Of a stretch of DNA of 41,531 nt, positions 876 through 41,531 are shown in pieces; the first letter of the stretch is position 1, and each line of letters begins with the position of its first letter. The notes under the pieces are model-generated. The model ran no database searches and was not told the origin of the DNA. It worked only from the letters and a program-made list of their open reading frames with translations. This stretch comes from a virus, in UHGV virus genome UHGV-0397187; one strand, given 5' to 3'. Position numbers and translations under genes: made by a program.

Positions 876-1952
876 TCAGAGCAGTAAGTACGTTTTTTCT
901 CTCTCATCAAGGTACATTTTTGTTGTCTTCTCCGATGTGTGGCCAAGTAGACGCTGAGCAAATTCTTCTCCACATGTTTCTTTGTACAATCGTCCAGCCA
1001 GACTTCTGATCTCGTGAAAAGTTGGTGGGTTTTCACTGAACTGGATACCTGTTAATTTTCTGGCTGCGACAAATTTTTTTGTCAGGCCATCCGGGTGAAT
1101 GCTGCCGTCAGGGCTGTTTTTTCTAATCCCGGCACTGATTAGATAATCTCCCCGGCTTACCAGGCGGCATCGTTCAACTACTGTACCAAGTCGTAAACCA
1201 GCGACAGGAAGGCTGAGTGACAGGGGGATAGCAATCATCATTCCTGTCTTAATTTGCCTGATGTGGAGACGATCATCATAAATCTCACTGAACCGCATAT
1301 TTGTTATGTCTTCGCGACGTTGTCCTGTTACAAGGGCTAAGTCCATAGCTAATGGGAACCATGTCGGAAGTTGATCTGCTGCCTCCCTGATGCAGTTGTA
1401 TGTCTTTAGTTTCAGCCGTTCTCTTGTAACTACTATTTTCGGTGCTCTTGTTGGCGTTACTGGATTTTGAGATATACGTCCTTCAACAATGGCCTCGCGG
1501 AACATATCAGATAACACAGAACGCATTGATCCTGCCATCGTGTTTTTCCCTCCTTCAATCCACAAATCAAGAAACTCGGCAATATGGCGAGTGGTTATTT
1601 CTGTCAGTAAAACTCCTCCTAATTTTTCTTTTATTGTCTCCAGTTGATTTACCCGAATTTTATAAGTATTTCTGGACACTTTTCTCCTTATAAGAATCGT
1701 TTTGTAACGTTCAATCCAGTCTGCCATAGTAAATGAGTCGAACCCTTTTAGTTTTTCAATTAAGGTAGCAGGAGAGTAGTTTTTGTATATATAATGATTT
1801 GCTTCAATTGCCTGCGCTACTGCATCTCTTCTTGAAATTTTACCTAGTGTAAATTCTTCTTTCGTCAGAGGGTTGCGCCAGTAATATGCTTTGTCCCTCC
1901 TTCGATATGTTAAGTTTTTAGGCAAATTGGGATCGTATTTTTTCCGCTGCAT
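876..1952 (-). CDS. int: lambda-family tyrosine integrase
   Basis: 358-aa ORF; N-terminus [28 protein letters not shown]...EFTLGK parallels lambda Int MGRRRSHERRDLPPNLYIRNNGYYCYRDPRTGKEFGLG; C-terminal [15 protein letters not shown]...LLGH motif also conserved. Confidence 0.9.
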
Positions 1953-2205
1953 GTTTTAACTTCTCCAGTAACGGACTGTCTCTCCCTTGTCGCCCATTAG
2001 GCTGATGGTGTGTTATATCGGTATCAACCTTATTTGGGTTGATATAGAAAGCTTCCGGAACCACCCTGTAACTCCTCCCGTGTAGTTCAGGTGCAGGATA
2101 AATGTTTCCATTCCTTGCCCATCGTCTCAGCGTTGATATTGATGGTGGGTTATCCGGATATCTGAGTTTTCCCCACGTTTTGAGTGTCACAAGATTCATT
2201 GCCAT
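1918..2205 (-). CDS. xis: excisionase (Xis-like), overlapping int start
   Basis: 95-aa ORF immediately upstream of and overlapping int, as in lambda xis-int; small basic protein; position-based call. Confidence 0.5.
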   Translation of the reverse strand: MAMNLVTLKTWGKLRYPDNPPSISTLRRWARNGNIYPAPELHGRSYRVVPEAFYINPNKVDTDITHHQPNGRQGRDSPLLEKLKHAAEKIRSQFA

Positions 2206-2305
2206 ACCTCTTACGATATGACCGCCAGTAAATATACAGAATACTGGCGGGTGTGGTTGATTTTTAATAATCAGCTATGAAGTTCTAATTTGTATATAAT
2301 GCAAC

Positions 2306-2494
2306 TCACGAGGACAGAAGTTTCTCGCAATTAAAATTTATCAGCTTTACTTTCTGCTCTCTGGACACGCCTGCTTCTTTTTTCCCTGAGAGCATTTTTT
2401 CGCATTCTGATTTCGTTAATTTAGATTTTGAATATCTTGTCCAGTTAGTAGGAGTGCCACCTTCTTTTTCAATAGTGGCAGTTATTTTATACAT
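2306..2494 (-). CDS. hypothetical small protein (position of Rac ydaC); start uncertain
   Basis: ORF 2306-2566 on minus strand; a later Met is chosen to limit overlap with the downstream lar-like gene. Confidence 0.35.
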   Translation of the reverse strand: MYKITATIEKEGGTPTNWTRYSKSKLTKSECEKMLSGKKEAGVSREQKVKLINFNCEKLLSS

Positions 2495-2693
2495 GAACAC
2501 CTCCATTATTATTTCCAGTAGTTCGTTTATTCCATCTTTCGAGTGCTTCTTTTTCACTTCCACCATAGCCAGTTCGGGATTCGCATCCGTTGCATTTTGC
2601 CCGGTAATATCCTGAAATTGCTTTCACCGTAACAGATGGACAACCACAAAACGGACATGGTTTAACATCGTCATATCTCATAATTTTTGTCAT
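2487..2693 (-). CDS. lar: Lar/RalR-family restriction-alleviation protein
   Basis: MTKIMRYDDVKPCPFCGCPSVTVKA...KCNGCESRTGY: small protein with paired Cys motifs typical of the Lar family; sits directly upstream of recT as in Rac. Confidence 0.7.
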   Translation of the reverse strand: MTKIMRYDDVKPCPFCGCPSVTVKAISGYYRAKCNGCESRTGYGGSEKEALERWNKRTTGNNNGGVHV

Positions 2694-2737
2694 AAAAACT
2701 GTCTCACGTTGGCGGTGCATTACACCGCCAGGCTGAA

Positions 2738-3547
2738 TTATTCTTCTGAATTATCGATTACACTGTATTCCCCGGTTAATACAGAGGAGTCTGCCGGATC
2801 GATTGTCAGTGGTTCCTTTTCATCCATTGATACTGCACGCTGGATTTCAATTGAGACAGGCAGGTATTTAAACAGGCGACGAATAGCCGTTTTTTTTGCC
2901 ATTTCTTCCCAGTGAGTTACCCATGGCCCGTTATTACCAGCCTTACTCTGGCTGCGCACCAGTTCAATCTGTTTGCGCGTCATAACTTCAAACTGAGTCC
3001 CTCCGTCTTTCAGTCTTGCGACAGCATAGACGTGGGTCACTGGTGCATCTTCGTTTTCTCCCGGGCGGTGTATTAACTTTTCATCAAGGCCAAATTCAAA
3101 ACTAAACTCGTCACCTTCACGGACAACACGGGCTGACAGGCTGGCGATTTGACCAGAACGGCGAGCCAGATCAATCATGCCGCGATAACCAATGATTAGC
3201 TGAACGTTCTTTTTACCGCTCTTTTCGTTTTTATTACCAAAAGGCAGTAAATATGCGTGGCCGAGGGCGCTACCTGGCTCAAGGCCGAGCTGTGAACACT
3301 GAACGATCGCACTGACAAAACTCATGGTGTCACAGTTTCCTAGCGCCGGAACCTTACGAATTTCTGTGGTGGCGATACGTATCATTCGTTCAGCCGTCAT
3401 ATGGCGTGGGAGAGCTGCTGCCAGTTGCTCTTTCATTGATGGCTGATTAATAAAGCTGATCACGTCGTTATTTTTTACTGCTGCTGGTGCACGGTTTCCC
3501 TGGGTTTTTTGCAGATCGGCTTTTGCGATAGGTGGTTGCTTAGTCAT
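2738..3547 (-). CDS. recT: RecT single-strand annealing recombinase
   Basis: From [32 protein letters not shown]... the translation matches my recollection of E. coli Rac RecT essentially throughout. Confidence 0.95.
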
Positions 3548-6173
3548 TTGCATACTCCTTAGCCCAGCGGGGCAGTGATAACGTTTTAATAGCTGGCCAT
3601 TCATCGGTATTCAGGCAGTCAGCCAGGGTCCTCAGATTGCGGTGATATTCCTGCTGGCCTGCCAGTTTTGCTTCTTCGCCCATCATGAAAATCTCAACCG
3701 GGTAACGTCCGCATTCAACAGTTGTGCTGGCAACCAGAAAAACGAAAGTTGGCAGCACGCCAAACTGTGCTTCATAACCGTCACTGTAGAATGCATCCTG
3801 AACGTGATAGCGGTAGTCGTAATAAGCCGTTTTGAATCGTTGAATATCCGCTGTGGTTTTCACGTCCATGATCCAGTGAAATTCAGGAATAATTTTGTCC
3901 GGACGGCACCGACACAAAATTCCTGTTTCCGGATCTTCCCAGTAAATTGATGATTCAGCGTGTCCGGCGCTTTCAACAAGCCATTGCCCCAGCGGCAAAG
4001 CCATAACGCTTTGATACATGAGTTCAATTTTCCGGCCTTCTTCCGCAGTGATAACCGTTTTTCCTGTGCTTGCGCATTCCATCAGAAACGCTTTCTCTTC
4101 TTCTTTTCCGGCGTTTGTACGGCGGTTAAATTCAGGTGCTACGATAAAGCGGTTACTGAATTCTTCCGGTTCAAGTACCCGGCAGTGGAAAGCGGTTCCT
4201 AAATCGAGCGTTTTTGTCTTTGTAGTGTCCACGGGGGCATTTTTACGCCACAAATACAGTGCCGGAGTATCAGCAATGTCATCGAGCTGAGACTTACTGA
4301 CACCGGGACCCGCGTGGTAATTCTCATTCGAAATTCCGTAATAAATACCTGGCTCTATGTCTTCTACGATTACGGGATCTGCGACTTCGCCAGTTTCATC
4401 ACTGCAATCGCGATGCGGATCGCTGCCAGCATTCTCATTGTGCGGATGTTCAGCGCCTTCCATTTCCTCCGGATCTTTTTCCTTAGCTTCAACCTGATTC
4501 TCTTCACCGAATGTTTCCTGGTATGTTGCGTCGCCCATCACCGCACCACAGTCAGGGCAGTTATCCCCGCCAGTCTGACCGCAGGCATTGCAGACTATTT
4601 CCGGTTCCTGTTGCACTACTGGCTCAGGTTGTTTCGCATCCGGGCTGATTTTTTCCGTTTCTGGCTGGTTCTGGTACACAGAATCGCGAGTCTGGATCCC
4701 CTTAACCCATTTCGGATCGTTCGGGTCGCTAATCCCTTCAACAAATTCTCCGCGAGAGGCAGCCAGTAATTTGTCTGCATCGACAGGATTTTTGGGCGGA
4801 ATGTTTTTCCGGGCTTCATGGAGTTCTGCCCGCAGTTTCTGATATTTCGCATCAACAGAATTTACCTGTGACTGAGCATCCAGCGACTGCGTGTCCTGAT
4901 GATGTTCAGTTGCATCCGGTTCCACTGTTTCAGCCGTTGCCTGTTCATCTGCCATTGCGCAAGATGGTTGCAGTTTTTCTTCATCATCCTGTTTTTCTTC
5001 TTCTGTTACACGCTGCGGCATCGGGGCAGAGGAACGACCGCAGGCAATATCCACGATTTCTGGATCAGGGTTGGCATGATCAGTTTCAGTCAGTACTTTG
5101 TTCAGATATTCAGTGACGTGTGCGGGGATAACCTCGATCCCAATTGGTGCTTCTTTTACGGACGCAACCACGATGGCGCGGGAATAATCCAGCCCACCAG
5201 GCATGGTGATGAATTTGTCGCGGAAAACAGAAAAGGGTGGTTTATTTTCAGCGATAATTTCCTCGACACGTTTAGCGTGTGCCGGATGAAGGTTATAAAT
5301 GTCCACGTCCATTGAACGAGCCAGTACGCCAGTGGCTACGTCGCGCGCCAGTGACGTCAGATCGTGAACGAAACCTTCGCCGCGATCGGTGAGGTTCCCG
5401 CCGCCAGCATTAGCGCCGGAAGCCGTGCGCGTGATGCGTGAAACACGATTTCCTTTCATCCACTCTTTTGTCAGCAGACCGCGATCGGTGTAGTCTGCGT
5501 CCAGGTATGCTTCGAAAAAAGCAGTCATCAGCCCCAGGCTTGAATTGCCTGGATTAGGGAAAACTCTGTCAGTATCACGCACCAGTTTGTGGAGATCGCG
5601 AATTTCCAGCGGGTCGAGCAGGCTGGTTTTGTGGGAAACAGCCAGGGCAGTAACAGCTGGTAGTTCTTCAGCTCGTGCAATGTGTAATGCCTGTAGTTCG
5701 TCGCGTGAAACGTGCGTTACCGGTTTTTCGCTGCCGTGTTGAGCAAGCCAGCGAATGGGCAGCTCCTGACCGGAAATCGGGAGTAGCATATTCTCCTCAA
5801 TCTCCGTCATGTCTTCGCCATTAACATTGGTATTGTCAGTGCTGGCTGGTTTGTCCTGCGCAGAGGATGAGGGCGCGATAAATACCATTGTGATGCCATC
5901 TTCCCCGCCTTTTTCGTAACGGTTGCAGAATTCCGTATCAAATACGCCTTCTGGTGGAAGGTCATCAACAACGGGCAAATTGACGCGAACAGGTTTTTTA
6001 AAGTCATCTTCATCGTAGCCAGCATCGTCAATCGCAACAGCACCACGGGAGATGGCAATGGATAATTTTTTCGCTTCAGCCCAGTAGAAACCGCCTTTAA
6101 TACCGAGACGTTTTCTTACTTTGTCATTTTTTGCTTCGTAATACAGTGGGTAAACTTGTTTATCGGTGCTCAT
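3540..6173 (-). CDS. recE: RecE exonuclease VIII
   Basis: 877-aa ORF; long stretches ([45 protein letters not shown]..., C-terminal ...[14 protein letters not shown]) match Rac RecE as recalled; N-terminal ~100 aa differ. Confidence 0.95.
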
Positions 6174-6243
6174 TGTTTTTTAACCTCAACTCAGATTAAA
6201 ATTAATGCGAGTGATGAATAAATGTCCCTGGTTCTTCACTCAG

Positions 6244-6273
6244 GCCTGCACAGTGTGCAGGCTTTCTTTTTTC
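6244..6273 (+). terminator. plus-strand hairpin plus T-run (intrinsic-terminator-like) in the racC-recE intergenic region
   Basis: gcctgcaca-g-tgtgcaggc followed by tttcttttttc; all surrounding genes are on the minus strand. Confidence 0.3.
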
Positions 6274-6300
6274 AGATTTCACCTTTTAATTTCATTGCAA

Positions 6301-6546
6301 TCAGAGTTGCCAGAAATTCGGCTTTTTTTCTGCGGGCAGATTCTTTCCTATGTGCACCAGACACATTTTTTTAACACCATCGTTAAGTGTTTTAACGTTG
6401 CCTGATGGACCGTCGATATCAACCACAGTGAATGGGGTTTCTTTATTTTCTGTCTTAATCACGTAGCCAATACGCTTTCCTTCCAGGGTAACTTCGTGAA
6501 CAATGTCATCAGTAGTAACAACAGTGGCTTCATAACTGGTAATCAT
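6301..6546 (-). CDS. racC: RacC-like protein
   Basis: MITSYEATVVTTDDIVHEV...; strong RBS (aaggagaaaaac) before this Met; position after recE as in Rac. Confidence 0.7.
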   Translation of the reverse strand: MITSYEATVVTTDDIVHEVTLEGKRIGYVIKTENKETPFTVVDIDGPSGNVKTLNDGVKKMCLVHIGKNLPAEKKPNFWQL

Positions 6547-6620
6547 GTTTTTCTCCTTAATTAAGGTTGAGCGAATCCCTGCCATTGCTGGCATAAATTC
6601 AGTTTCGGATAGTCAGTTAA

Positions 6621-6790
6621 TTAAAGTTCGTGTGCCATCTGGTCTTTTTCGGCACAGATTTCACTACAATATTTTTTCATTTCCGTCGTTGGTATAACTC
6701 CACGCATGAAATGAAGTGGTCTTGTAATGATTTTGCTTTCTTCAATTTCTTTATTGCAAAGGTGATAAGCACATTTTATTTTCTTAGTCA
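6621..6790 (-). CDS. ydaE: YdaE-like small zinc-binding protein (missed by the ORF track, under 60 aa)
   Basis: Minus-strand translation [56 protein letters not shown]; four Cys; resembles Rac YdaE. Confidence 0.7.
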
Positions 6791-7012
6791 TTACCATGAC
6801 TCCGCCTTTACAGGTAAACCATCACGACCGAGGAAGACTCTAATCATGCAGTCAGAAATGCATGTTTTTGTAGTCAGGCTACGAATATAAAGTTTTCGCT
6901 TTTTAATATTGTTTGCCGAGGCGATATATGTCCGACCTTCATGAAGAACATAATCGCCAGGGGTCACACACTGACGTGGTATTTCATCAGTTCCGAAGTG
7001 ATGAGCAATCAT
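6791..7012 (-). CDS. kilR: Kil protein (KilR-like cell-division inhibitor)
   Basis: [46 protein letters not shown]...; matches Rac KilR as recalled; GGAG RBS precedes this internal Met. Confidence 0.8.
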
Positions 7013-7407
7013 AATTATCTCCATTTTTACAAATGAACTTTGTTGATGCGGTGCCTGGTGCCTCCAGGTGACGTTAACCAGTTAACAATTAACGCCGGAT
7101 AATCCACCCATAACACTGATGCTTTTAACTGTGCCGCGTGCGCTTAGCCGCATTCACCGCATCACAAAATTCACTTTAAAAAGGGGCAGCAGGGCAGCCA
7201 CGGAGTAGAACTGATGCCGCCAAAGACTACACATAGCAATGTCGTTATTTACAACCGGAGGCGCACTCCCACCATTTAAATTTAACAGACAAGACCGACT
7301 CTTTATGAATACCGGAAATGCGCCTTCGTGTTGTGCGCCTGTCTTTTTACCACTTCAGGCTCGGTGGTATACTGGAGTTCTCACACAACCAGTAATAAGG
7401 TATTCCG

Positions 7408-7602
7408 ATGGATAATAAAGACAAAGCCTGGCTACTTGCTTTAGCTTTCAGCATCAGATCGCAGCGAGAAACAACTCATCAAGAATTTTTCTCGGAAATC
7501 GAGAATGCTGAGAATGAGTTTTTGTCACTACTCAATGAACGTGATGCTAAAAAAAGCGCCGATTCACTTAAGGCTTGGGCGAAACTAGGCTCTTCAAAAT
7601 AA
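7408..7602 (+). CDS. hypothetical protein (position of sieB in Rac, but much shorter)
   Basis: 64-aa ORF preceded by an extended -10 (tggtatact) at about 7360-7370. Confidence 0.4.
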   Translation: MDNKDKAWLLALAFSIRSQRETTHQEFFSEIENAENEFLSLLNERDAKKSADSLKAWAKLGSSK

Positions 7603-7786
7603 TTGCTTCTGTAGCGGCATGAACAACTGTTTTTGCCGCCTCTTCAACTTCCTTGTCTGGACGACCAGCCTTTACTTTTTCTGCAATGACCTCCAGCACA
7701 GTTGGAAGAACCTTGCTAATAAGCATGGCTGCCACATCTTTGCTGCACAATTGACCGTTAATAACAACCAGATCTTCACCAACCAT
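7568..7786 (-). CDS. hypothetical protein, convergent with the previous gene
   Basis: ORF 7568-7843; the internal Met at 7786 is preceded by an aagggga RBS. Confidence 0.4.
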   Translation of the reverse strand: MVGEDLVVINGQLCSKDVAAMLISKVLPTVLEVIAEKVKAGRPDKEVEEAAKTVVHAATEAIILKSLVSPKP

Positions 7787-7963
7787 CTTTTTTCCCCTTA
7801 ACGCCGGGTGGCGGAACGTTTTATCTACTGCGCTTTGTATCAATCAACAACTGCCGTCATGTTCGTATGCCTCAGGCTGGCTACTTAGCCCTGTTCAGTG
7901 GCTGGATAACTCGAGGTATTGTCCTGCCGTTCTCTGGTGGGGCGTTGTTTGGATATGCTTATT

Positions 7964-8001
7964 AAACACAATGTGTTTTCTTGTGTCAACACGAAATGTG
8001 T
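7964..8001. promoter_or_regulatory. operator-like palindromes downstream of repressor gene (OL-like)
   Basis: aacaca-a-tgtgtt at 7964-7976 and aacacg-aaa-tgtgtt at 7987-8001; same AACACA/TGTGTT half-sites as the site at 8564-8578. Confidence 0.5.
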
Positions 8002-8086
8002 TTTGTGGTGGGTGTCATATGATGATGGTACAAAAAAAGCCCGCTGATAGCGGGCTGATTGGCATATTACTGTGATAGCAAGATCA

Positions 8087-8506
8087 TTACTCCGGTGGGG
8101 GATTATCTTTAAGCCTGCCTCTCAAATATTTTTCTACATACTCATCGATTTCTTTTAGCCGGACTTCAAATAGCTCAATCATTCGTTGTTGTTCTGAGCC
8201 CGGTAGCTGGTTAAACAACTCAAGAAGTTTTCGTTGGGATTCATTTAACCACAATTCAGAAGATTCCTGTTCTCCAAAGAGGAGCTCAGGTGGAGATATG
8301 CCAAGAGCCTTTCCCAATACGACAGCGTCATGCACTCCAACATTTCTGCTGCCCGCCTCATAGTTACCTATACGCGATTGCGTCCATCCGCAGATTTCAG
8401 CAAGTTTTCCTTGAGATAAACCAAGCTTCTGCCTGCGCTCTTTAAGACGCATTGCAATTTTGTCATTGAGCCTACTAGCGGCAATTTTTTCGTTTTCTTT
8501 TTCCAT
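8087..8506 (-). CDS. prophage repressor, HTH (XRE-family, RacR/CI-like)
   Basis: RQKLGLSQGKLAEICGWTQSRIGNYEAGSRNVG is a classic HTH; divergent from a Cro-like gene across a 96-bp operator region. Confidence 0.8.
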   Translation of the reverse strand: MEKENEKIAASRLNDKIAMRLKERRQKLGLSQGKLAEICGWTQSRIGNYEAGSRNVGVHDAVVLGKALGISPPELLFGEQESSELWLNESQRKLLELFNQLPGSEQQRMIELFEVRLKEIDEYVEKYLRGRLKDNPPPE

Positions 8507-8517
8507 TGCATCCTTGT

Positions 8518-8578
8518 ATCACGAATCGTGATTTACATAAAACACAAAACAGCTTGACCATATAACACAAGATGTGTT
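8518..8578. promoter_or_regulatory. divergent promoter/operator region (OR-like) between repressor and cro-like gene
   Basis: Palindrome atcacga-a-tcgtgat at 8518-8532; palindrome aacaca-aga-tgtgtt at 8564-8578 lying between a ttgacc -35-like and taaaat -10-like element. Confidence 0.55.
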
Positions 8579-8602
8579 TAAAATTGTCATCGGAGGTTTT
8601 CA

Positions 8603-8845
8603 ATGAACAAAATTTCAACATATCGAAAACAGCTTGGGCTGTCTCAAAGACAACTCGCTGTTCAGTTAGGGTGGATACAAAGCCGACTGGCAAATTACGA
8701 AGCAAATTTTCGTACCCCTGGACTAGAGGAGTGCAGAAAAATTGTTTCTACCCTTAATCGGCTTGGCGCTCATTGTGGACTTGACGATGTATTCCCCCCA
8801 GACGGTAAGCATAGCGAAAACAGCATAGGAGCGGTTGATTCATGA
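8603..8845 (+). CDS. Cro/YdaS-like HTH regulator
   Basis: RKQLGLSQRQLAVQLGWIQSRLANYEAN: HTH paralogous to the repressor HTH; first gene of the rightward operon. Confidence 0.75.
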   Translation: MNKISTYRKQLGLSQRQLAVQLGWIQSRLANYEANFRTPGLEECRKIVSTLNRLGAHCGLDDVFPPDGKHSENSIGAVDS

Positions 8846-9264
8846 AAATCAGGCATGAGCACATCGAATCAGTGTTGTTAGCCCTGGCAGCCGAAAAAGG
8901 GCAGGCGTGGGTCGCTAACGCAATTACTGAAGAATATCTGCGCCAGGGGGGCGGCGAATTGCCCCTGGTACCAGGCAAGGACTGGAACAATCAGCAGAAT
9001 ATCTATCATCGTTGGTTGAAAGGTGAAACGAATGCGCAAAGGGAAAAAATTCAGAAACTGATCCCAGCAATTCTGGCAATCCTTCCGCGCGAGCTGCGTC
9101 ACCGACTCTGCATCTTCGATACCCTGGAACGCCGTGCATTACTGGCGGCGCAGGAAGCGTTGAGTACGGCAATTGATGCGCATGATGATGCAGTCCAGGC
9201 CGTTTACCGGAAAGCACATTTCAGCGGTGGTGGGTCGCCCGGCGATTCTGTCGTAGTGCATTGA
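8842..9264 (+). CDS. YdaT/CII-like regulatory protein
   Basis: 140-aa ORF directly after the cro-like gene, same size and position as Rac ydaT; family assignment by position and recollection only. Confidence 0.45.
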   Translation: MKIRHEHIESVLLALAAEKGQAWVANAITEEYLRQGGGELPLVPGKDWNNQQNIYHRWLKGETNAQREKIQKLIPAILAILPRELRHRLCIFDTLERRALLAAQEALSTAIDAHDDAVQAVYRKAHFSGGGSPGDSVVVH

Positions 9265-9309
9265 TTGAAATTAATCGTGCCGGATTGTTTTGTTCGGTAT
9301 CAGTTAAAT

Positions 9310-9727
9310 GTAACGCTGTGAGCGTTACAAGGTGAAAACAAATGGCTTCAAACTGGATAAAGCTCGAGGTTATTACGCCGGATAAGCCGGAAATATTCAG
9401 GCTTGCTGAGATTCTGAATATTGATCCAGATGCCGCATTAGGGAAGGTTATTCGCTTCTGGGCATGGGCGGATCAACAAATGATAGACGGTAATGCAGAT
9501 TGTAACGCTCGCGGCGTTACAAAAAGTGCAATAGATCGCATCACTTTTATGGCTGGTTTTGCTGATGCGTTAATTCAGGTTGGATGGCTGGTCGAAAATG
9601 ACGGTGGGCTTTCTCTACCTAACTTTGAACGTCATAACGGGAAAAGCTCTAAAAAACGGGCGGTTACAAACGAGCGAGTTACAAAAATACGCGAACTGAA
9701 ACGAAAAGGTAACGCTGGCAGCGTTAC
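9310..9727. repeat. iteron-like palindromes (candidate origin / initiator binding sites)
   Basis: gtaacgc-N5-gcgttac at 9310-9328, 9502-9520 and 9709-9727, plus half-sites (ggttacaaa, agttacaaa) near 9662-9690. Confidence 0.5.
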
Positions 9728-10136
9728 ACAAATGGATCAAAAAGCGTTACCAGAGGAAGAGGAAGAGGAAGAGGAAGATATAAATACTGATCTCCCCCTA
9801 AATCCCCCTCGCCAAAAACGAGCGTCTAAAAAATTTGAGCCGGAGGCTATTGAGCTGCCCGATTGGTTGCCGGAAACACTCTGGCATGAGTGGGTCCGGT
9901 TCAGGCAGGCATTGCGAAAACCGATTCGAACGGAGCAGGGCGCTAACGGGGCGATACGGGAGCTGGAAAAATTCCGCCAGCAGGGTTTTACACCTGAGCA
10001 GGTGATTCGACACAGTATCGCCAATGAATACCAGGGCCTGTTCGCGCCGAAAGGTGTTCGGCCTGAGACGTTGCTCCGACAGGTTAACACCGTCTCGTTG
10101 CCGGACAGTGCGATCCCGCCAGGCTTCAGGGGGTAA
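9342..10136 (+). CDS. replication initiation protein (O-like / YdaU-like)
   Basis: 264-aa ORF upstream of a DnaC-like loader; contains the iteron-like palindromes and an acidic (EEEEEEEED) linker. Confidence 0.55.
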   Translation: MASNWIKLEVITPDKPEIFRLAEILNIDPDAALGKVIRFWAWADQQMIDGNADCNARGVTKSAIDRITFMAGFADALIQVGWLVENDGGLSLPNFERHNGKSSKKRAVTNERVTKIRELKRKGNAGSVTQMDQKALPEEEEEEEEDINTDLPLNPPRQKRASKKFEPEAIELPDWLPETLWHEWVRFRQALRKPIRTEQGANGAIRELEKFRQQGFTPEQVIRHSIANEYQGLFAPKGVRPETLLRQVNTVSLPDSAIPPGFRG

Positions 10137-10142
10137 CAGGCC

Positions 10143-10889
10143 ATGAAAAATATTGCGACAGGAGGCGTTCTGGAGCGTATCCGCAGACTGACCCCACCAC
10201 ATGTAACCGCCCCATTCAGAACGGTTGCGGAGTGGCGCGAGTGGCAACTTGCTGAAGGCCAGAAACGTTGCGAGGAGATCAACCGCCTGAATCGTCAGTT
10301 GCGGGTGGAAAAAATCCTGAATCGCTCTGGCATCCAGCCGTTGCACCGCAAATGTTCGTTTGCGAATTACCAGGTGCAGAACGACGGTCAGCGATACGCG
10401 TTGAGTCAGGCGAAATCCATCGCTGATGAACTGATGACCGGGTGTACAAATTTTGCGTTCAGCGGAAAGCCTGGTACCGGGAAGAACCACTTAGCGGCAG
10501 CTATCGGGAATCGCCTGCTGAAAGACGGTCAGACAGTGATTGTGGTTACCGTGGCTGATGTTATGAGTGCCCTCCACGCCAGCTATGACGACGGGCAGTC
10601 AGGCGAGAAATTTTTGCGGGAACTGTGCGAAGTGGATCTGCTGGTTCTTGATGAAATTGGCATTCAGCGCGAGACGAAAAACGAGCAGGTGGTACTGCAC
10701 CAGATTATTGATCGACGGACAGCGTCGATGCGTAGCGTGGGTATGCTGACAAACCTGAACTATGAGGCCATGAAAACATTGCTCGGCGAGCGGATTATGG
10801 ATCGCATGACCATGAACGGCGGACGCTGGGTGAATTTTAACTGGGAGAGCTGGCGTCCGAATGTCGTCCAGCCAGGAATTGCGAAGTAA
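10143..10889 (+). CDS. DnaC-like helicase loader (IstB-type AAA+ ATPase)
   Basis: Walker [18 protein letters not shown] and Walker B LLVLDEIG motifs. Confidence 0.85.
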
Positions 10890-10911
10890 TTTTTACCGGG
10901 AGAAAAATTTA

Positions 10912-11673
10912 ATGGAGACTGTTTTTGATGCACTGAAAGCAATGGGAAAAGCCACATCCATAGAACTTGCTGCGCGACTTGATATCAGTCGTGAAGAAGT
11001 GCTGAACGAACTATGGGAACTGAAAAAAGCTGGTTTCGTTGATAAAAGCGCGTACACCTGGCGTGTGGCTGATAACAACGTTCAGCAGGAACAGCCAGCG
11101 CCAGAAGAACAGCCGGAAGAAACCACCACGGCGACAGTAGCGAAAATCTCAGAGTGCGATTTAACCGCGACGATTGAACAACGCGGACCACAAACGGCGG
11201 ATGAACTGGCTACGCTGTTCGGTACAACATCCCGCAAAGTGGCTTCAACGCTGGCAATGGCAATCAGCAAAGGTCGTCTGATTCGCGTAAATCAGGGCGG
11301 TAAATTTCGTTACTGCATACCGGGCGATAATTTACCAGCAGAGCCGAAAGCTGCATCGGTAGCGGAAACTGATGGTAAAGCCTTTCCTCAGCCTGCATGT
11401 GTTGCGTTACCAGTACAGGAGGCTGCAACACAGGAAGATATTAAAACAGAAACTGTGGCGGACATTGTGCAGTCGCTGCCATCGTTCACCGAAACGCGAG
11501 CGGATGACCTGATTTTACCATCGCTGCATATGGCAAACCGCGAACTGCGTCGGGCGAAAAGTCATGTCCAGAAGTGGGCGCGAGTCTGCGCCGCGCTGCG
11601 GGAGCTGAACAAGCACCGGGATATTGTTCGACAGATTACTGATTCTTCCCGCCGTGTTGTATCGGAAAAGTGA
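10912..11673 (+). CDS. winged-helix DNA-binding protein (DUF1627-like), start uncertain
   Basis: [45 protein letters not shown] is a winged-helix-like N-terminus; the ORF could start at 10861 instead. Confidence 0.5.
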
Positions 11674-11688
11674 TTGCCGGAGGCACTT

Positions 11689-12111
11689 ATGGCAAAAGTA
11701 TTTACACAAGAAGAGCGGGAAAAAATTAAAGGGCAGGTTGTTGAGCTAGTACGCCGGAGTGGGCGCGAGACGTTACGGCAACTGGAAGCCAAGACAGGTG
11801 CGACAAGATATCTGATGAGCGTTCTCGCCAGAGAGCTTGTTGCCAGTGGCGATGTATACAACTCTGGTTACGGGTTATTTCCGTCTGAACAGGCCCGTAA
11901 GGACTGGCAAAACGCCCGCAAAAAACTATCCAGGGCAAAGGTGAAAAAAACGGTTGTGGTTGATCCTGACCTTATCTGGTCATTACCAGACGGAGAAATA
12001 CGCCGCTACGACAGGCGTCTGAACATAATCTGTCGCGAGTGCCGGAAGAGCGAAGCTATGCAGCGTGTACTGGCTTTCTATCAGGGTAATTTTCAGGAGG
12101 CGGTACTGTGA
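11689..12111 (+). CDS. hypothetical protein
   Basis: ORF with ATG at 11689 preceded by ccggagg RBS (the track start at 11674 is a TTG). Confidence 0.5.
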   Translation: MAKVFTQEEREKIKGQVVELVRRSGRETLRQLEAKTGATRYLMSVLARELVASGDVYNSGYGLFPSEQARKDWQNARKKLSRAKVKKTVVVDPDLIWSLPDGEIRRYDRRLNIICRECRKSEAMQRVLAFYQGNFQEAVL

Positions 12112-12168
12112 GTGAAATTAGCTATCAGGCTTCAATTGCCGCTGGCATTCGCATCAAAGGAGAGGAGC

Positions 12169-12525
12169 ATGGAAATAAAACCAGAAGATGAGTTAAGTAA
12201 TATTGTTTTATTTCCGGTAAAAGAGGATGACCCACGTAATCAGGTTAATTTTCTTTATGAGCCATCGGAAAGACCATATTGTCATCACGCCTCTGTCCGG
12301 GTTGACGAAAAAGAGCGTCAGGTCCGCTGTAAAATCTGCGGTGCAGTTGTGGAGCCATTTGACCGGATGCTCTCTGTGGCGAAAAGAGAAACCAGACTGG
12401 CAGATGATGTAAGGCTATTGCGTCAGGAGGAACAGGAAAGGCGAAAAAATATAGAAAAGCTAATTCAGATTGAGCGTAACGCGAAAGCGCGGATAAGCAG
12501 GGTGACAAAATCAAGAACTGAATAA
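12169..12525 (+). CDS. hypothetical protein with zinc-ribbon-like Cys/His motif
   Basis: ATG at 12169 after aaaggagaggag RBS (the track start at 12112 is a GTG); CHH...CKIC motif. Confidence 0.5.
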   Translation: MEIKPEDELSNIVLFPVKEDDPRNQVNFLYEPSERPYCHHASVRVDEKERQVRCKICGAVVEPFDRMLSVAKRETRLADDVRLLRQEEQERRKNIEKLIQIERNAKARISRVTKSRTE

Positions 12526-12618
12526 TTTAAATTTAGCACTGTTAAAAATTTAATCCTTAACCGGAGGGATTTCTGCACCATCAGAACATCAGGAGTCCGC
12601 CCGAAAGGGCGGTAAGAA

Positions 12619-12837
12619 ATGACTACATTATTCAGAAAAGAATATCCGCGAAGAAGTAGAACGACAGAATTTTTGTTTCTCATTCTGTTTATCGTGTTGA
12701 TGACACCGATATCCCCGCTAATTTTTGTCTGGGCAATCGGGAAAATAATTGAGCCAGTTATTGAATTGTATAACGACGTGGTATGGGCGTCGTTCAACAC
12801 ACTGCACAATAAAATTAATCCGTATAAGGAAAGCTGA
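12619..12837 (+). CDS. small membrane protein
   Basis: FLFLILFIVLMTPISPLIFVWAIG is a hydrophobic stretch consistent with a transmembrane helix. Confidence 0.45.
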   Translation: MTTLFRKEYPRRSRTTEFLFLILFIVLMTPISPLIFVWAIGKIIEPVIELYNDVVWASFNTLHNKINPYKES

Positions 12838-12838
12838 T

Positions 12839-38937: not shown

Positions 38938-39614
38938 GCAAATACACCGAACTGATCACGAACTACCACGCCACCAAACCTAAATTTCTTGCACATGTTG
39001 ATCTGATGACCCGGCCGCTTATTGATGTTGCGGCTGCCACCAGAGGGCTGATTACTGCATTTGATATTGACTCTGCGGTTGGTGTGCAACTTGACATTCT
39101 TGGATTGTGGATCGGACGTAGCCGTGTTGTCAGCCAGCCTATCTCAGGTGTCTATTTCAGCTGGGATACCGACGGGCTTGGATATGATCAGGGTGTATGG
39201 CAGGGGCCATACGATCCTGATTCCGGATACATGTACCTCAGCGATGAAACTTATCGTGTCATCCTTAAAGCGAAGATTGCGATTAATAACTGGGATGGAC
39301 GGAATGATTCGCTTCCGGCAATTCTTGACGCGGCGACAGCAGGATCCGGACTGCGAATGCAGATAGTCGATAACCAGGACATGACGATATCGGTCTGGGT
39401 CTTTCCTGATACTGATATTTCAGATGTATCGCGTGAGTTAATTGCTGCAATTAAACAGGGATATCTCACAGTAAAAGCCGCCGGGGTTTGGGCGGGTGGC
39501 ATTGAAACACCTTCGGTGGAAACTCCATCGGAAGGTTCAAAATTTTTTGGTTTTGATATGGATAACGAATTCATCAGTGGTTTTGATGTAGGGGCATGGG
39601 GAGTATTACTCTGA
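38934..39614 (+). CDS. baseplate/tail protein (gpI-like)
   Basis: 226-aa ORF immediately upstream of the tail fibre gene. Confidence 0.55.
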
Positions 39615-40309
39615 TGGCGAAAAATGACTTTAAAGCGTTTGCAACTGATCGGAATGCCAATGTTATGTCGCAGGAGGAATGGGAAGCGTTGCCTGCGCTT
39701 TTATCCGGATTTACAGCAGGGAAAGCATCCAGTGCGCAAGTCAATAAGGTTATTCGGCAGGCCAGCTTTATTGCTGCAGCTCTGGCCCAGTTTGTAAGTG
39801 ACAAAACGCAACGGGATGTGCTTGATAATGGTGATCTGCCCGGTTTTGTTGAATTGCTGGGATCGGGGTTTGCTGTTGAATACCTGAGCCGCAAGAATCC
39901 GTTTGGCGATATCAAATCGGATGGCACGGTGAAAACGGCTCTCGAAAACCTTGGTTTGGGAGAAGCGGCGAAAAGGGATGTGGGCACAGGAGATAATCAG
40001 ATACCGGATATGGGAGCATTCGCTTCTGGTTCGGGATGGTTCAGGCTACCAGGTGGATATATTGTTCAGTTTGGCACTTTTTCAGGAAACACGACCCGCT
40101 TTATCAGTGGACACTTCCCTATACCATTCCCTAATCAGCCGATGGTTTCAGTCAGTGTTATGTCTGATGCCGTTCAGTCAGACCCGTCGAATCCTGCCCC
40201 GCAGGTTTTGTCTGTAAATTTTGAACATATCAGTAATTCAGCGTGGCGTGTGGCAACCAGTGATATCTCACAGCAATACAGATTCAGTTATATTTCGATA
40301 GGACGGTAG
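39614..40309 (+). CDS. tail fibre protein with invertible C-terminal half
   Basis: ATG at 39614 overlaps the previous stop; the hix-like site lies inside the coding region at 39939-39964, splitting a constant N-terminus from a variable C-terminus. Confidence 0.8.
39939..39964. other. hix/gix-like 26-bp crossover site (left, inside tail fibre gene)
   Basis: ctctcgaaaacc-tt-ggtttgggagaa, exact reverse complement of 41482-41507. Confidence 0.8.
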
Positions 40310-40311
40310 AA

Positions 40312-40752
40312 ATGCAGAAATATATTTTCAGTGCCGATAAAAATGCGTTTTTCCCTGTGGAGCTTAAAATCGCTTATCAGGAATCCGGCGAATGGCCCGA
40401 TGATGGAATCGAAATTGACGACACTGTTGCCGCCGAATTTATGAAGGAAGCACCAGAAGGAAAATACAGAGGTGTCATCGACGGAATGCCTGCATGGATT
40501 GATATTCCACCGCCAACTCATGAGGAACAAATTGCCGCAGCCGAACTGGAAAAGCAGCAATTGATTAATCAGGTCAACGAATACATAAACAGTAAGCAAT
40601 GGCCTGGTAAAGCGGCGATTGGTCGCCTGAAAGGTGAGGAACTGGCGCAATATAATTTGTGGCTGGATTATCTGGACGCACTGGAGCTGGTCGATACTTC
40701 CGGTGCGCCAGATATTGAATGGCCTACGCCTCCGGTAACTCAGGCCAGCTAA
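40312..40752 (+). CDS. tfa: tail fibre assembly protein (Tfa)
   Basis: 146-aa ORF right after the fibre; C-terminal VDTSGAPDIEWP motif shared with Tfa'. Confidence 0.8.
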   Translation: MQKYIFSADKNAFFPVELKIAYQESGEWPDDGIEIDDTVAAEFMKEAPEGKYRGVIDGMPAWIDIPPPTHEEQIAAAELEKQQLINQVNEYINSKQWPGKAAIGRLKGEELAQYNLWLDYLDALELVDTSGAPDIEWPTPPVTQAS

Positions 40753-41119
40753 TCTCAGGAGCCGTCGAAGTGTCGACGGCTTTTACTTCTTTTTTGTAGT
40801 ACATCCAGGCGGATAGTTTTTCTTTATCTGTACTGCTAATATCACCAAGCATTAATTCCACTCGCCAGTCAGCTGTGACATTATCGGCATGAGAAAGTAA
40901 CTGCATTCGCTGATTTTCCGCACGTGCGACATAATCAATCACCGGGGATTTCAGTACCGGTAAACCATTTTCATCTGACGTAATTAATTTACCCCCTTCC
41001 TGCTGTCCGGCAATTAATTCATTGTATAAGTCTGTACTTATCTCAACAATGTCAGCAGGCATGTCGCTGTTTATACCATCGAAGAAAAAACCATTAGTCG
41101 ATTTTGAGAAATAAATCAT
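40724..41119 (-). CDS. alternative tail fibre assembly protein (Tfa')
   Basis: MIYFSKSTNGFFFDG...; C-terminus ...VDTSTAPEISWP parallels Tfa; convergent with Tfa and overlapping its 3' end. Confidence 0.75.
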   Translation of the reverse strand: MIYFSKSTNGFFFDGINSDMPADIVEISTDLYNELIAGQQEGGKLITSDENGLPVLKSPVIDYVARAENQRMQLLSHADNVTADWRVELMLGDISSTDKEKLSAWMYYKKEVKAVDTSTAPEISWPELPEA

Positions 41120-41127
41120 AGATATAC

Positions 41128-41531
41128 CTATACACCGATTGCTACCCAAAAACAGGACCTTTCATATTTGACAATTTCTCCCTGAGATATACCGCCAACA
41201 ATTATATAGAACTGTGATTTGCTGATATCAGAACAGTTCGCTATGCCCATTGCAGATATACCCGCCACCGACGTTGTATGTGGTACAGCCAACAGCGCAA
41301 GTGAACGATTTGGGAATGTTACCGGGTAAGTCACCGTATAGTTTGATGCTCCACTGACAATACCCCACTGAATAATCAGACCCGAAGGTAGTTTTTGAAA
41401 ACCCGTTGATGAAAGTGAACTGGCAAACGCCGCCATATCCGGAATTTGGTTTTGCCCGTTACCTACATTCCGTTTTGCCGCTTCTCCCAAACCAAGGTTT
41501 TCGAGAGCCGTTTTCACCGTGCCATCCGATT
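41128..41531 (-). CDS. alternative tail fibre C-terminal segment (no own start; expressed only after inversion)
   Basis: Minus-strand translation ...[41 protein letters not shown]... shares the constant-region junction with the fibre at 39614-40309, then diverges. Confidence 0.75.
41482..41507. other. hix/gix-like 26-bp crossover site (right)
   Basis: ttctcccaaacc-aa-ggttttcgagag; near-palindromic half-sites around a 2-bp core. Confidence 0.8.

What the first reader, a model, noticed from the sequence alone, without database searches (positions are those of the whole stretch)
876..41531. Mosaic genome: Rac-type early-left region and lambda-type lysis with a contractile-tail structural module
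RecE/RecT/Lar/RacC/YdaE/KilR, a lambda R-like endolysin and Q/PR' logic are lambdoid. The virion module (PBSX-type terminase, Mu-F-like head protein, sheath, tube, gpV/W/J/I-like baseplate, invertible fibre) is myovirus-like. The gene order hok-rem-DUF1367-Q resembles Qin. This documents exchange of modules across several prophage types.
Basis: partly seen in the sequence, partly recalled or inferred. Interest (0 to 1): 0.5.

Follow-up and report, generated by a model that had tools for sequence, protein, structure and literature searches.

The report
Rac-type lambdoid prophage with contractile tail
This is an ordinary E. coli-type prophage that joins Rac/lambda-like early, regulatory and lysis genes to the head and contractile-tail genes of the already described SEN34 phage type, and the same combination sits in dozens of sequenced E. 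coli genomes.

Summary
The mosaic is real. Window 2256-19877 (rcbA/ralR/recT/recE/racC/ydaE/kilR through ydaT-W, the Q-like gene, holin and endolysin) is collinear with Rac of K-12 and with a Rac-like prophage, vB_EcoS-666R9, that carries siphovirus-type tail genes. Identity is 87-98% nt. The endolysin is 89% identical to lambda R.

Window 22694-40748 is a head plus contractile-tail module. It is 97% nt identical to the predicted prophage vB_EcoM-611R5 and 74-83% to Salmonella phage SEN34, whose contractile tail has been seen by EM. The sheath and tube match solved XM1 and Pam3 proteins. Between the two blocks lie LysC-type spanins and a PBSX-family terminase that SEN34 lacks.

- The integrase is lambda-like, not Rac's.
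- Lysis belongs to the Rac-type backbone.
- The Qin resemblance is only hokD/sok plus a DicF-like sRNA. The 'rem' ORF, YdfU and Qin's Q show no similarity.

The holin-to-portal joint occurs in 38 of 5426 complete E. coli genomes. In strain GCEC19 the whole prophage is bounded by a 20-bp att repeat between yebY and pphA. Lambda-like phages with myovirus virions were published in 2017 (SEN34, genus Brunovirus). Verdict: real but ordinary, a new member of a known kind, low interest.

The parts
1..718 (.). Right end of a neighbouring, tandem prophage of the same kind. It holds a copy of the fibre inversion repeat (1-60), a disrupted pinE invertase (122-218 and 333-414) and the P arm.
   Evidence: Window 1-60 matches the reverse complement of 39946-40005 at 59/60. 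The pin alignment shows the middle ~375 nt replaced. Window 380-738 matches the attR side of the GCEC19 prophage. The same pin-att-int junction occurs in E. coli 12089.
719..738 (.). 20-bp att core, ACAGGAATCGTATTCGGTCT
   Evidence: The same 20-mer flanks the GCEC19 prophage as a direct repeat, at L001 3006 and L002 27940, between yebY and pphA.
876..2205 (-). Lambda-type tyrosine integrase (876-1952) and excisionase (1918-2205). Not Rac IntR/XisR.
   Evidence: Pfam Phage_integrase, the lambda arm-binding domain and Exc. 38% aa identity to lambda Int and no match to IntR.
2256..7368 (-). Rac-type early-left operon: rcbA/DUF1187, ralR (Lar), recT, recE, racC, ydaE and kilR. RalA antitoxin sRNA lies at 2310-2488 (+) and a DicF-like sRNA at 7184-7235 (-).
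   Evidence: 87-95% nt identity to K-12 Rac. 73-99% aa identity. Pfam and PHROG hits. Rfam hits.
7568..8845 (.). Immunity region: a 91-aa ORF of unknown function (7568-7843, -), an HTH repressor (8087-8506, -) and a divergent Cro-like HTH protein (8603-8845, +).
   Evidence: Pfam HTH_3 on both proteins. No similarity to RacR or YdaS, and 29% aa identity to DicA.
8842..12111 (+). YdaT, a replication initiator (O/YdaU-like), the DnaC-like loader YdaV, YdaW (DUF1627) and a DUF977 protein.
   Evidence: 93-94% nt identity to Rac. 81-97% aa identity. Pfam and PHROG hits.
12112..14608 (+). Variable nin-like accessory block. It includes three ORFs with Ead/Ea22-like N-termini and one 178-aa ORF of unknown function.
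   Evidence: PHROGs of unknown function only. No Pfam or PADLOC hits. Mostly absent from GCEC19.
14800..15102 (+). hokD/sok type I toxin-antitoxin
   Evidence: Rfam sok at 103.9 bits. Pfam HOK_GEF. 99.2% nt and 98% aa identity to Qin hokD.
15339..17102 (+). An 83-aa ORF that is not Rem, then DUF1367, the YbcO-type nuclease and the Rac-type Q-like antiterminator (DUF1133, 16548-17102).
   Evidence: The Q-like protein is 72-85% identical to the annotated Q of Rac, Rac-SA53 and 666R9.
17099..17930 (+). Candidate late promoter (17099-17128), IsrK-family terminated RNA (17135-17211), c4-a1b1 (17122-17174), C4-like RNA (17237-17320), a small ORF that overlaps the next start in ATGA, and an ORF6N antirepressor (17373-17930).
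   Evidence: The layout matches Gifsy-1 antQ-isrK-orf45-anrP (PMC4825925).
18137..18733 (+). Membrane-protein ORF of unknown function (phrog_11870), flanked by terminator-like sites at 18023-18048 and 18957-18978.
   Evidence: Conserved in 666R9 at 97.6% nt.
19081..19902 (+). Lambda-family holin with an MKM dual start (19081/19087-19422) and a lambda R-type transglycosylase endolysin (19426-19902).
19886..20441 (+). Spanin pair: an Rz-like gene (19886-20278) and an overlapping LysC/Rz1-type lipoprotein gene (about 20163-20441).
   Evidence: Pfam LysC at 66.5 bits; DUF2570 is only a weak hit. 24% and 35% aa identity to lambda Rz and Rz1, and different from the 666R9 Rz.
20665..22783 (+). Terminase small subunit (20665-21414) and PBSX-family large subunit (21380-22783).
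   Evidence: phrog_370. Pfam Terminase_3. TIGR01547. About 83% nt identity to Klebsiella phages. The N-terminal domain is unrelated to the SEN34 and 611R5 TerL.
22783..29673 (+). Head and neck genes: portal, Mu-F-like protein, DUF2213, cement/minor capsid protein, major capsid, DUF4054, Neck1/tail completion protein, a head protein and the tail terminator.
   Evidence: Pfam. PHROGs. The capsid matches the Pam3 capsid 8hdt at E 4.7e-19. 88-99% aa identity to 611R5 and 80-93% to SEN34.
29677..33913 (+). Tail genes: sheath (29677-30822), tube (30833-31273), assembly chaperone (31277-31729) and tape measure (31886-33913).
33913..39614 (+). Baseplate genes: Dit-like protein, Pam3 gp18-type plug, hub, a low-GC two-ORF moron (35893-36632), spike with GpV apex motif, wedge (gpW-like), Baseplate_J and DUF2612.
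39596..41531 (.). Tail fibre with an invertible C-terminal cassette. The repeats are IRL 39915-40023 and IRR 41423-41531. Between them lie the fibre tip and tfa (+) and an alternative tfa' (40724-41149) and fibre tip' (41128-41517) on the minus strand.
   Evidence: Window 39946-40748 is inverted in 611R5 at 98.5% nt.

Best explanation
The window holds one temperate-phage genome of about 41 kb, integrated as a prophage. It has lambdoid organisation but a myovirus virion.

Shown by sequence: it is built from a few large blocks with sharp borders.
1. A lambda-type int/xis pair and a 20-bp att core.
2. A Rac-type backbone from rcbA to the endolysin (2256-19877). It carries RecET recombination, Kil, RalR/RalA, its own immunity pair, YdaT-W replication genes, hok/sok, the Rac-type Q, a lambda-family holin and a lambda R-type endolysin.
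3. A short block with LysC-type spanins and a PBSX-family terminase (19878-22693).
4. A SEN34/Brunovirus-type head, contractile-tail and baseplate module (22694-39965).
5. A Pin-type invertible fibre tip.

Inferred: after induction, the Q-like protein loads at the promoter just downstream of its own gene. It then lets RNA polymerase read through the IsrK terminator and the two later terminators (18023-18048, 18957-18978) into lysis, packaging and virion genes as a single rightward late operon. The virion would then be an icosahedral head on a simple contractile tail of the Pam3/XM1 type, with host range switched by fibre inversion.

Also inferred: the mosaic arose by recombination at shared linker sequences. 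The S-R lysis cassette is shared by phages that carry either virion type. The last 90 nt of the terminase gene are shared by two terminase types. The lineage has since spread in E. coli.
For: Block borders and identities come from BLASTN against Rac, Qin, lambda, 666R9, 611R5 and SEN34 and from protein identities.

This is one genome, not two elements:
- There is one integrase, one immunity pair, one Q-like gene, one lysis cassette and one terminase.
- All genes from 8603 to 40752 are on the + strand.
- The equivalent prophage in GCEC19 is 41.3 kb, bounded by the 20-bp direct repeat between yebY and pphA, and 96-98% identical to the window across the int-to-baseplate span.

Contractile tail:
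- The sheath and tube match solved sheath and tube proteins.
- Pfam finds the Pam3 plug, E217 hub, Baseplate_J and tail terminator.
- EM of SEN34 shows a contractile tail (PMC5261728).

Late control:
- The Q-like gene, promoter, terminated 77-nt RNA and further terminators lie upstream of the holin.
- The Gifsy-1 homologue of this locus shows partial read-through of the IsrK terminator (PMC4825925).

Linker homology:
- 666R9 is 97.6% identical up to 19877, and 611R5 is 88% identical over 19067-20024 although its early genes are unrelated.
- Similarity to 611R5 and SEN34 resumes at 22694, 90 nt before the TerL stop.

Spread: the holin-to-portal joint is present at >=80% coverage in 38 of 5426 complete E. 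coli genomes.
Against: - No experiment shows that this particular prophage is inducible or makes particles.
- 611R5 and 666R9 are PHASTER-predicted prophages whose 'M' and 'S' letters were assigned by homology. SEN34 is therefore the only relative with EM evidence, and it is only 47-93% aa identical.
- The cognate invertase and attR lie beyond the window end. The only pin gene in the window is disrupted and belongs to the neighbouring element.
- That the IsrK promoter is the Q-modified late promoter is an inference. No Q-binding element or pause site was identified.
- No N-like antiterminator was identified.
Confidence: 0.85

Rival explanations
1. The apparent mosaic is two separate elements lying side by side: a defective Rac-like prophage next to an unrelated myovirus prophage or tailocin cluster. 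It would then not be one genome.
For: The window does contain a tandem junction at its left end, with a pin remnant and an attP-like site. Side-by-side prophages therefore do occur at this locus, as in strain 12089.
Against: - There is no att core, integrase, repressor or replication gene between 19877 and 41531, and the 20-bp core occurs only once in the window.
- The Rac-type part has no virion genes of its own, and the myovirus part has no early genes.
- Capsid, portal and terminase genes are present, so this is not a tailocin.
- In GCEC19 the whole unit is bounded by one pair of att repeats and is 41.3 kb, about the size of the 40.7-kb SEN34 genome.
- The same joint occurs in 38 complete genomes.
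Confidence: 0.04
2. It is a single mosaic prophage but a cryptic, non-inducible one, like Rac in K-12. It would be kept for its accessory genes (RecET, Kil, hok/sok, RalR) rather than as a live phage.
For: - The adjacent pin gene is broken.
- The 73-aa ORF at 27614-27835 corresponds to a 122-aa protein in GCEC19.
- The second prophage in strain 12089 has a frameshifted integrase.
- No induction data exist for this sequence.
Against: - In the window, every structural ORF compared aligns essentially end to end with its SEN34 or 611R5 counterpart, apart from the spike N-terminus and the divergent ends of the tape measure and fibre.
- int, recE, the Q-like gene, the lysis genes and the terminase are uninterrupted.
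- No IS elements are present.
- The 73-aa form of the small ORF is shared with 611R5.
Confidence: 0.2
3. The junction between the two blocks is an assembly chimera.
For: None beyond the general possibility. The source of the window is unknown.
Against: The 4.4-kb segment spanning holin to portal is found in one piece at 98-99% identity in 38 independent complete genomes. Contiguous whole-prophage matches exist in GCEC19, CDE6306 and PEC422.
Confidence: 0.01

Closest known systems
Salmonella phage SEN34 (genus Brunovirus; lambda cluster 'temperate 26' of Casjens and Grose, as cited in PMC5261728)
   Same: The overall design is the same: lambdoid int / recombination / immunity / replication / Q / S-R-Rz order joined to the same virion gene set, from portal to fibre. 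The virion genes are collinear, at 74-83% nt and 47-93% aa identity. SEN34 shows a contractile tail by EM.
   Different: The early region is a different allele set. SEN34 has exo/bet/gam, lambda O/P-type replication genes, NinB/NinG and a 265-aa Q. The window has RecET, YdaU/V/W and the Rac-type DUF1133 Q. The terminase differs (540-aa TerL in SEN34 against the PBSX-family TerL here). SEN34 has no invertible fibre cassette. Only 33% of the window aligns at the DNA level.
Rac prophage of E. coli K-12 and its undeleted relatives (Rac-SA53; predicted prophage vB_EcoS-666R9)
   Same: The rcbA-ralR-recT-recE-racC-ydaE-kilR block, ydaT-U-V-W, DUF1367-YbcO-Q, the phrog_11870 ORF, the holin and the endolysin are collinear at 87-98% nt.
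   Different: int/xis and the att site differ, as does the immunity pair. sieB is absent here. From the R/Rz border onward, 666R9 carries its own Rz, trkG/parB, a different terminase, a P22-type coat and lambda-type H-M-L-K-I tail genes.
Predicted E. coli prophage vB_EcoM-611R5 (ON470588) and the prophages at yebY/pphA in E. coli GCEC19, CDE6306 and PEC422
   Same: The GCEC19-type prophages show the same mosaic end to end at 96-98% nt. 611R5 shares the virion module at 97% nt, with the fibre cassette in the opposite orientation.
   Different: 611R5 has an unrelated early region (DNA polymerase, helicase) and the SEN34-type terminase. GCEC19 differs in the variable slots 7360-7790, 12100-14580, 18057-19069 and 35851-36590, and in the fibre tips.
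Bacteriophage lambda
   Same: The gene order is the same. Int is 38% aa identical, R is 88.6%, the holin is S-family with an MKM dual start, and late control follows the Q-then-promoter-then-terminated-short-RNA layout.
   Different: No nucleotide similarity exists outside R. The Q family, recombination genes (RecET against Exo/Bet/Gam) and replication genes differ, no N was found, and the virion is not lambda-like.
Gifsy-1 antQ-isrK-orf45-anrP locus and the P1 immI (c4-icd-ant) module
   Same: A Q-like gene is followed by a promoter, an IsrK-family RNA with a terminator, a small ORF ending in an ATGA overlap, and an antirepressor. Rfam C4 and c4-a1b1 matches fall in the same 200 nt.
   Different: Function was not tested here. 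Whether this RNA also serves as the lambda 6S-equivalent leader of the late operon is an inference.

Membership tests
Lambdoid phages (lambda-like genome organisation) | Gene order int-xis / recombination / kil / repressor-cro / replication / nin-like genes / Q / holin-endolysin-spanin / virion genes | tested here: met
   ORF map and family hits. Direct comparison with the lambda annotation.
Lambdoid phages (lambda-like genome organisation) | Q-type antiterminator acting at a late promoter with a downstream terminator | tested here: inconclusive
   The Q-like protein (Pfam Phage_antitermQ 27.5 bits against a cut-off of 26; phrog_753), a promoter-like site at 17099-17128 and a terminator at 17190-17211 are all present. 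Only a weak match to the solved Q21 structure (E 0.02). Activity was not testable.
Lambdoid phages (lambda-like genome organisation) | Lambda-type non-contractile (siphovirus) tail | tested here: not met
   Sheath and tube homologues are present. No lambda V/H/J homologues were found.
Rac prophage family | The rcbA-ralR/ralA-recT-recE-racC-ydaE-kilR early-left block | tested here: met
   87-95% nt and 73-99% aa identity. RalA sRNA at 219 bits.
Rac prophage family | The ydaT-ydaU-ydaV-ydaW replication/regulation block and the Rac-type Q | tested here: met
   81-97% aa identity. Q is 72-85% identical to the annotated Q of Rac, Rac-SA53 and 666R9.
Rac prophage family | IntR/XisR and integration at ttcA | tested here: not met
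   No similarity to IntR. The integrase is lambda-Int-like. The att core lies between yebY and pphA in GCEC19.
Rac prophage family | RacR/YdaS immunity pair | tested here: not met
   BLASTP found no significant match.
Rac prophage family | Lambda-like tail genes (tape measure H, M, L, K, I, Stf) | tested here: not met
   Present in 666R9 and absent here.
SEN34-type phages (genus Brunovirus) | Virion gene set from portal to fibre collinear with SEN34 genes 3-27 | tested here: met
   74-83% nt and 47-93% aa identity, in the same order.
SEN34-type phages (genus Brunovirus) | Genome-wide nucleotide similarity at genus level (about 70%; ICTV convention, from my own knowledge) | tested here: not met
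   Only 13.7 kb (33%) of the window aligns, at 69-83% identity.
SEN34-type phages (genus Brunovirus) | Same terminase | tested here: not met
   The TerL N-terminal domains are unrelated and the C-terminal domain is 36% aa identical. The TerS proteins are unrelated.
Contractile-tailed phages of the simple Pam3/XM1/E217 type | Sheath and tube proteins homologous to solved examples | tested here: met
   Sheath: 7kh1 at E 6.6e-41 and 8hdr at E 1.7e-23. Tube: 8hdr at E 1.1e-9.
Contractile-tailed phages of the simple Pam3/XM1/E217 type | Baseplate with plug, hub, spike, wedge and J-type proteins | tested here: met
   Pfam Pam3_gp18, E217_GP41, the spike N-terminal domain with the GpV apex motif, and Baseplate_J. 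phrog_120 for the wedge.
Contractile-tailed phages of the simple Pam3/XM1/E217 type | Tail seen to contract | not testable with these tools
   EM exists only for the relative SEN34.
Qin prophage | hokD-rem-ydfU-ydfT(Q) gene set | tested here: not met
   hokD is 98% aa identical. Rem, YdfU and YdfT give no BLASTP hit to the window proteins. At the DNA level only 259 bp and 202 bp are shared.
Invertible tail-fibre systems (Mu Gin/G, P1 Cin/C, e14 Pin/P) | Inverted repeats that flank two opposed sets of fibre tip plus assembly gene | tested here: met
   109-nt arms that are 84% complementary. Opposed tfa and fibre-tip ORFs. A relative carries the segment flipped.
Invertible tail-fibre systems (Mu Gin/G, P1 Cin/C, e14 Pin/P) | Adjacent functional serine invertase | tested here: inconclusive
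   The expected position is beyond the window end. pinE follows the cassette in GCEC19. The pin gene at 122-414 is disrupted and belongs to the neighbouring element.

The most novel reading that the evidence does not exclude
The least ordinary reading still open is that this Rac-backbone / PBSX-terminase / SEN34-type-virion recombinant is a live, inducible phage. By genome-wide identity it would be a new species, and probably a new genus, beside Brunovirus. It would show that the Rac early region, known mostly from a dead K-12 prophage, circulates on both siphovirus-type and myovirus-type virion gene sets. A minor extra point is that the recombination joint lies inside the terminase gene, so the last ~30 codons travel with the portal gene.
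Probability: 0.5. Interest if true: 0.15.

Novelty: new member of a known kind. Interest (0 to 1): 0.1.

Why it matters
It matters little beyond annotation. Modular exchange among temperate enterobacterial phages is textbook. A lambda-like genome with a myovirus virion was described for SEN34 in 2017, and this very combination is present in dozens of sequenced E. coli genomes.

Its practical value is as a clean worked example with base-level joints:
- The shared S-R lysis cassette.
- The 3' end of the terminase gene.

It is also a reminder that 'Rac-like' or 'lambda-like' hits from prophage finders say nothing about tail type.

Tried and rejected
- Circular genome. I tested whether the window is a complete, circularly permuted phage genome, because the pin-attP-int junction at its start suggested it. 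Rejected: window 1-60 is a separate copy of the inversion repeat and does not continue the repeat arm that ends at 41531, and the reading frame across a 41531->1 join is broken. A tandem prophage, as in strain 12089, fits better.\n- Qin resemblance. Tested protein by protein and rejected except for hokD/sok and DicF.\n- Defence genes. Ten accessory ORFs were searched against PADLOC. The only hits were weak matches of the ORF6N antirepressor to the candidate family PDC-S05, which I do not treat as a finding.\n- Q structure. A search of solved structures with the Q-like protein gave only a marginal match to Q21 (E 0.02), too weak for structural membership.\n- Relatives 611R5 and 666R9. A literature search found that they are PHASTER predictions whose morphotype letters were assigned by homology. 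I did not use them as evidence of tail morphology.\n- tRNAs. None were found.\n- Exact source. No complete E. coli genome in the collection holds the whole window at >=99% identity.

Full report
**What is in the window**

ORF listing and translation show a temperate-phage layout.
- Leftward genes run from 876 to about 8506.
- Rightward genes run from 8603 to 40752.
- An invertible fibre cassette sits at the right end.
- No tRNAs were found.

Megablast against 5426 complete E. coli genomes shows that each half is common in E. coli. Both halves lie next to each other in several genomes, namely GCEC19, CDE6306 and PEC422. In GCEC19 the equivalent prophage sits between yebY and pphA. It is bounded by a 20-bp direct repeat (ACAGGAATCGTATTCGGTCT), is 41.3 kb long, and is 96-98% identical to the window apart from a few variable slots.

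**Early and regulatory arm**

| Gene | aa identity to K-12 Rac |
|---|---|
| RcbA/DUF1187 | 98% |
| RalR (= Lar) | 98% |
| RecT | 99% |
| RecE | 90% |
| RacC | 91% |
| YdaE | 73% |
| KilR | 93% |
| YdaT | 95% |
| YdaU (C-terminal part) | 81% |
| YdaV | 96% |
| YdaW | 97% |

At the DNA level the window matches Rac at 87-95% over 2256-5835, 6166-7368, 8836-9262 and 9775-11361. Rfam adds the RalA antitoxin RNA (2310-2488), a DicF-like RNA upstream of kil (7184-7235, minus strand) and sok (14800-14949).

Two parts are not Rac:
- The integrase and excisionase are lambda-type. Int carries the lambda arm-binding domain and is 38% identical to lambda Int, with no match to IntR.
- The repressor/Cro pair is unrelated to RacR/YdaS.

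**Q, late control and lysis**

The protein at 16548-17102 is DUF1133. It also passes Pfam's Phage_antitermQ threshold (27.5 bits against 26) and matches phrog_753, 'anti-termination protein Q-like'. It is 72-85% identical to the proteins annotated as Q in Rac, Rac-SA53 and 666R9.

Right after its stop codon come, in order:
- a promoter-like site at 17099-17128;
- a 77-nt RNA ending in a terminator, which Rfam assigns to the IsrK family (78 bits);
- overlapping matches to c4-a1b1 and C4;
- a small ORF whose stop overlaps the start of the next gene (ATGA);
- an ORF6N antirepressor.

This is the layout published for Gifsy-1 antQ-isrK-orf45-anrP, where RNA polymerase partly reads through the IsrK terminator (PMC4825925). 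Two more terminator-like sites (18023-18048, 18957-18978) and a conserved membrane-protein ORF lie before the holin.

My inference is that the IsrK promoter is the counterpart of lambda PR', and that Q-modified polymerase reads through all three terminators. This was not tested.

The lysis genes:
- The holin is lambda S-family with an MKM dual start.
- The endolysin is 88.6% identical to lambda R (PDB 1AM7, E 2e-96).
- The spanins are not close to lambda's. Rz is 24% identical. Rz1 is a LysC-family lipoprotein gene that overlaps Rz rather than being embedded in it.

**Where the blocks join**

The whole stretch 2256-19877 is collinear at 92-98% nt with the predicted prophage vB_EcoS-666R9. That prophage then continues with its own Rz, trkG/parB, a different terminase, a P22-type coat and lambda-type tail genes H-M-L-K-I. 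So the lysis genes belong to the Rac-type backbone, and the first joint is at the R/Rz border (19877).

Similarity to the myovirus relatives 611R5 and SEN34 begins at 22694, 90 nt before the TerL stop. The block between the two joints holds the spanins, TerS and a PBSX-family TerL (TIGR01547, 142.5 bits). It is about 83% nt identical to Klebsiella phages. It differs from the SEN34 and 611R5 terminase except in the C-terminal nuclease domain (36% aa) and the last ten residues.

611R5 has an unrelated early region but still shares the holin-endolysin cassette at 88% nt. This supports the view that the cassette acts as linker homology for swapping virion modules. That view is an inference.

**Virion module**

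Family hits are as follows.
- Head: portal (Phage_portal_3), Mu-F-like protein, DUF2213, a cement/minor capsid protein (XM1 gp53, E217 gp24 / Pam3 gp6 families) and the major capsid.
- Neck: Neck1/tail completion protein and tail terminator.
- Tail: sheath (DUF3383), tube (KPP10_Orf10), assembly chaperone and tape measure.
- Baseplate: Dit-like protein, Pam3 gp18 plug, E217 gp41-type hub, a spike with the GpV apex motif, a wedge subunit, Baseplate_J and DUF2612.
- Fibre: a gp53-like fibre and its assembly protein.

The sheath matches solved sheaths (XM1 gp6 7kh1, E 6.6e-41; Pam3 8hdr, E 1.7e-23). The tube matches the Pam3 tube (E 1.1e-9), and the capsid matches the Pam3 capsid.

The module is 96.8-97.7% nt identical to 611R5. 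It is 74-83% nt (47-93% aa) identical to SEN34, in the same gene order. EM shows that SEN34 has a contractile tail, and the SEN34 authors already noted that it is lambda-like in its genes but a myovirus in form (PMC5261728).

**Invertible fibre**

A 109-nt inverted repeat (39915-40023 / 41423-41531, 84% complementary) brackets two opposed sets of fibre tip plus assembly gene. In 611R5 the segment 39946-40748 lies in the opposite orientation at 98.5% identity, which is direct evidence of inversion within the lineage. The cognate invertase lies beyond the window end. In GCEC19, pinE follows the cassette.

**The Qin claim**

Only hokD/sok (99.2% nt over 259 bp) and a 202-bp DicF-region match link the window to Qin. 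The 83-aa ORF at 15339-15590 is the same length as Rem but shows no similarity to it. YdfU matches none of the DUF1367, YbcO and DUF1133 proteins, and Qin's Q (YdfT) is unrelated to the window's Q-like protein. This part of the finding is wrong.

**Left end**

Bases 1-738 are not host DNA. They hold another copy of the fibre inversion repeat (59/60 match), a pinE gene whose middle is replaced, and the P arm up to the att core. The junction is therefore attP-like, as in the tandem prophages of strain 12089. A simple circular genome was considered and rejected.

**How common it is, and verdict**

The 4.4-kb holin-to-portal segment occurs at >=80% coverage and about 98% identity in 38 of 5426 complete E. 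coli genomes, from chickens, cattle, mice and humans. At the DNA level only 33% of the window aligns with SEN34, so it would not fall in the same genus by the usual identity criterion. The design, however, is the same.

The mosaic is real and cleanly delimited. It is still an ordinary example of modular phage evolution and a new member of a known kind. Interest is low.

Noticed in passing
window 1-738: The window starts inside the right end of a second prophage of the same type. It holds an inversion-repeat copy (1-60), a pinE gene whose middle ~375 nt are replaced by ~115 nt (122-218 and 333-414), and the P arm up to the 20-bp att core at 719-738. This makes an attP-like tandem-prophage junction, as in E. 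coli 12089.
   Followed up: yes
window 17099-17930: The locus downstream of the Q-like gene matches three Rfam families within 200 nt: isrK, c4-a1b1 and C4. It is followed by a small ORF coupled by an ATGA overlap to an ORF6N antirepressor. The Gifsy-1 IsrK locus therefore looks like the same thing as a P1 immI-type (a1b1-c4-icd-ant) module. The IsrK paper does not mention P1 or c4.
   Followed up: partly
window 22694-22783: Nucleotide similarity to the SEN34 and 611R5 virion module starts 90 nt before the stop of an otherwise different terminase gene. The last ten residues, IWE(Q/L)LGRQA, are conserved. The portal-proximal tail of TerL appears to travel with the portal gene.
   Followed up: partly
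window 35893-36632: A low-GC (0.40) insert lies inside the baseplate operon. It has two small secreted-looking ORFs (an 84-aa Thr/Gly-rich one with no PHROG hit, and a 113-aa one in phrog_13007) and its own terminator at 36588-36611. This slot differs in GCEC19, 611R5 and SEN34.
   Followed up: partly
window 19886-20441: The spanin genes are of the overlapping type. The Rz1/LysC-family lipoprotein gene starts at about 20163 and ends 163 nt beyond the Rz stop. This differs from lambda's embedded arrangement and from the Rz of the Rac-like relative 666R9.
   Followed up: partly
window 12749-14608: Three ORFs (12749-13270, 13274-13717, 14231-14608) share an Ead/Ea22-like N-terminal segment with the motif IALASLEAE. 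They surround a 178-aa ORF (13698-14234) that has only unknown-function PHROG hits.
   Followed up: no
window 7184-7235 (minus strand): A DicF-family sRNA (55.3 bits) lies just upstream of the kil gene in the early-left operon. The flanking 202 bp match the dicF-dicB region of Qin at 88.6%.
   Followed up: no
window 27614-27835: A 73-aa ORF, also 73 aa in 611R5, corresponds to a 122-aa 'STY1053 family' protein in GCEC19. The cause could be a frameshift, a different start or an annotation difference. This was not resolved.
   Followed up: no
phage record PP818812.1 (Actinobacillus phage vB_Apl-pPE4): A phage deposited with an Actinobacillus host carries a Q-like protein 98.9% identical to the window's and matches 38% of the window's first half at 93.8% nt. 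That is odd for a non-enterobacterial host, and contamination or mislabelling is possible.
   Followed up: no
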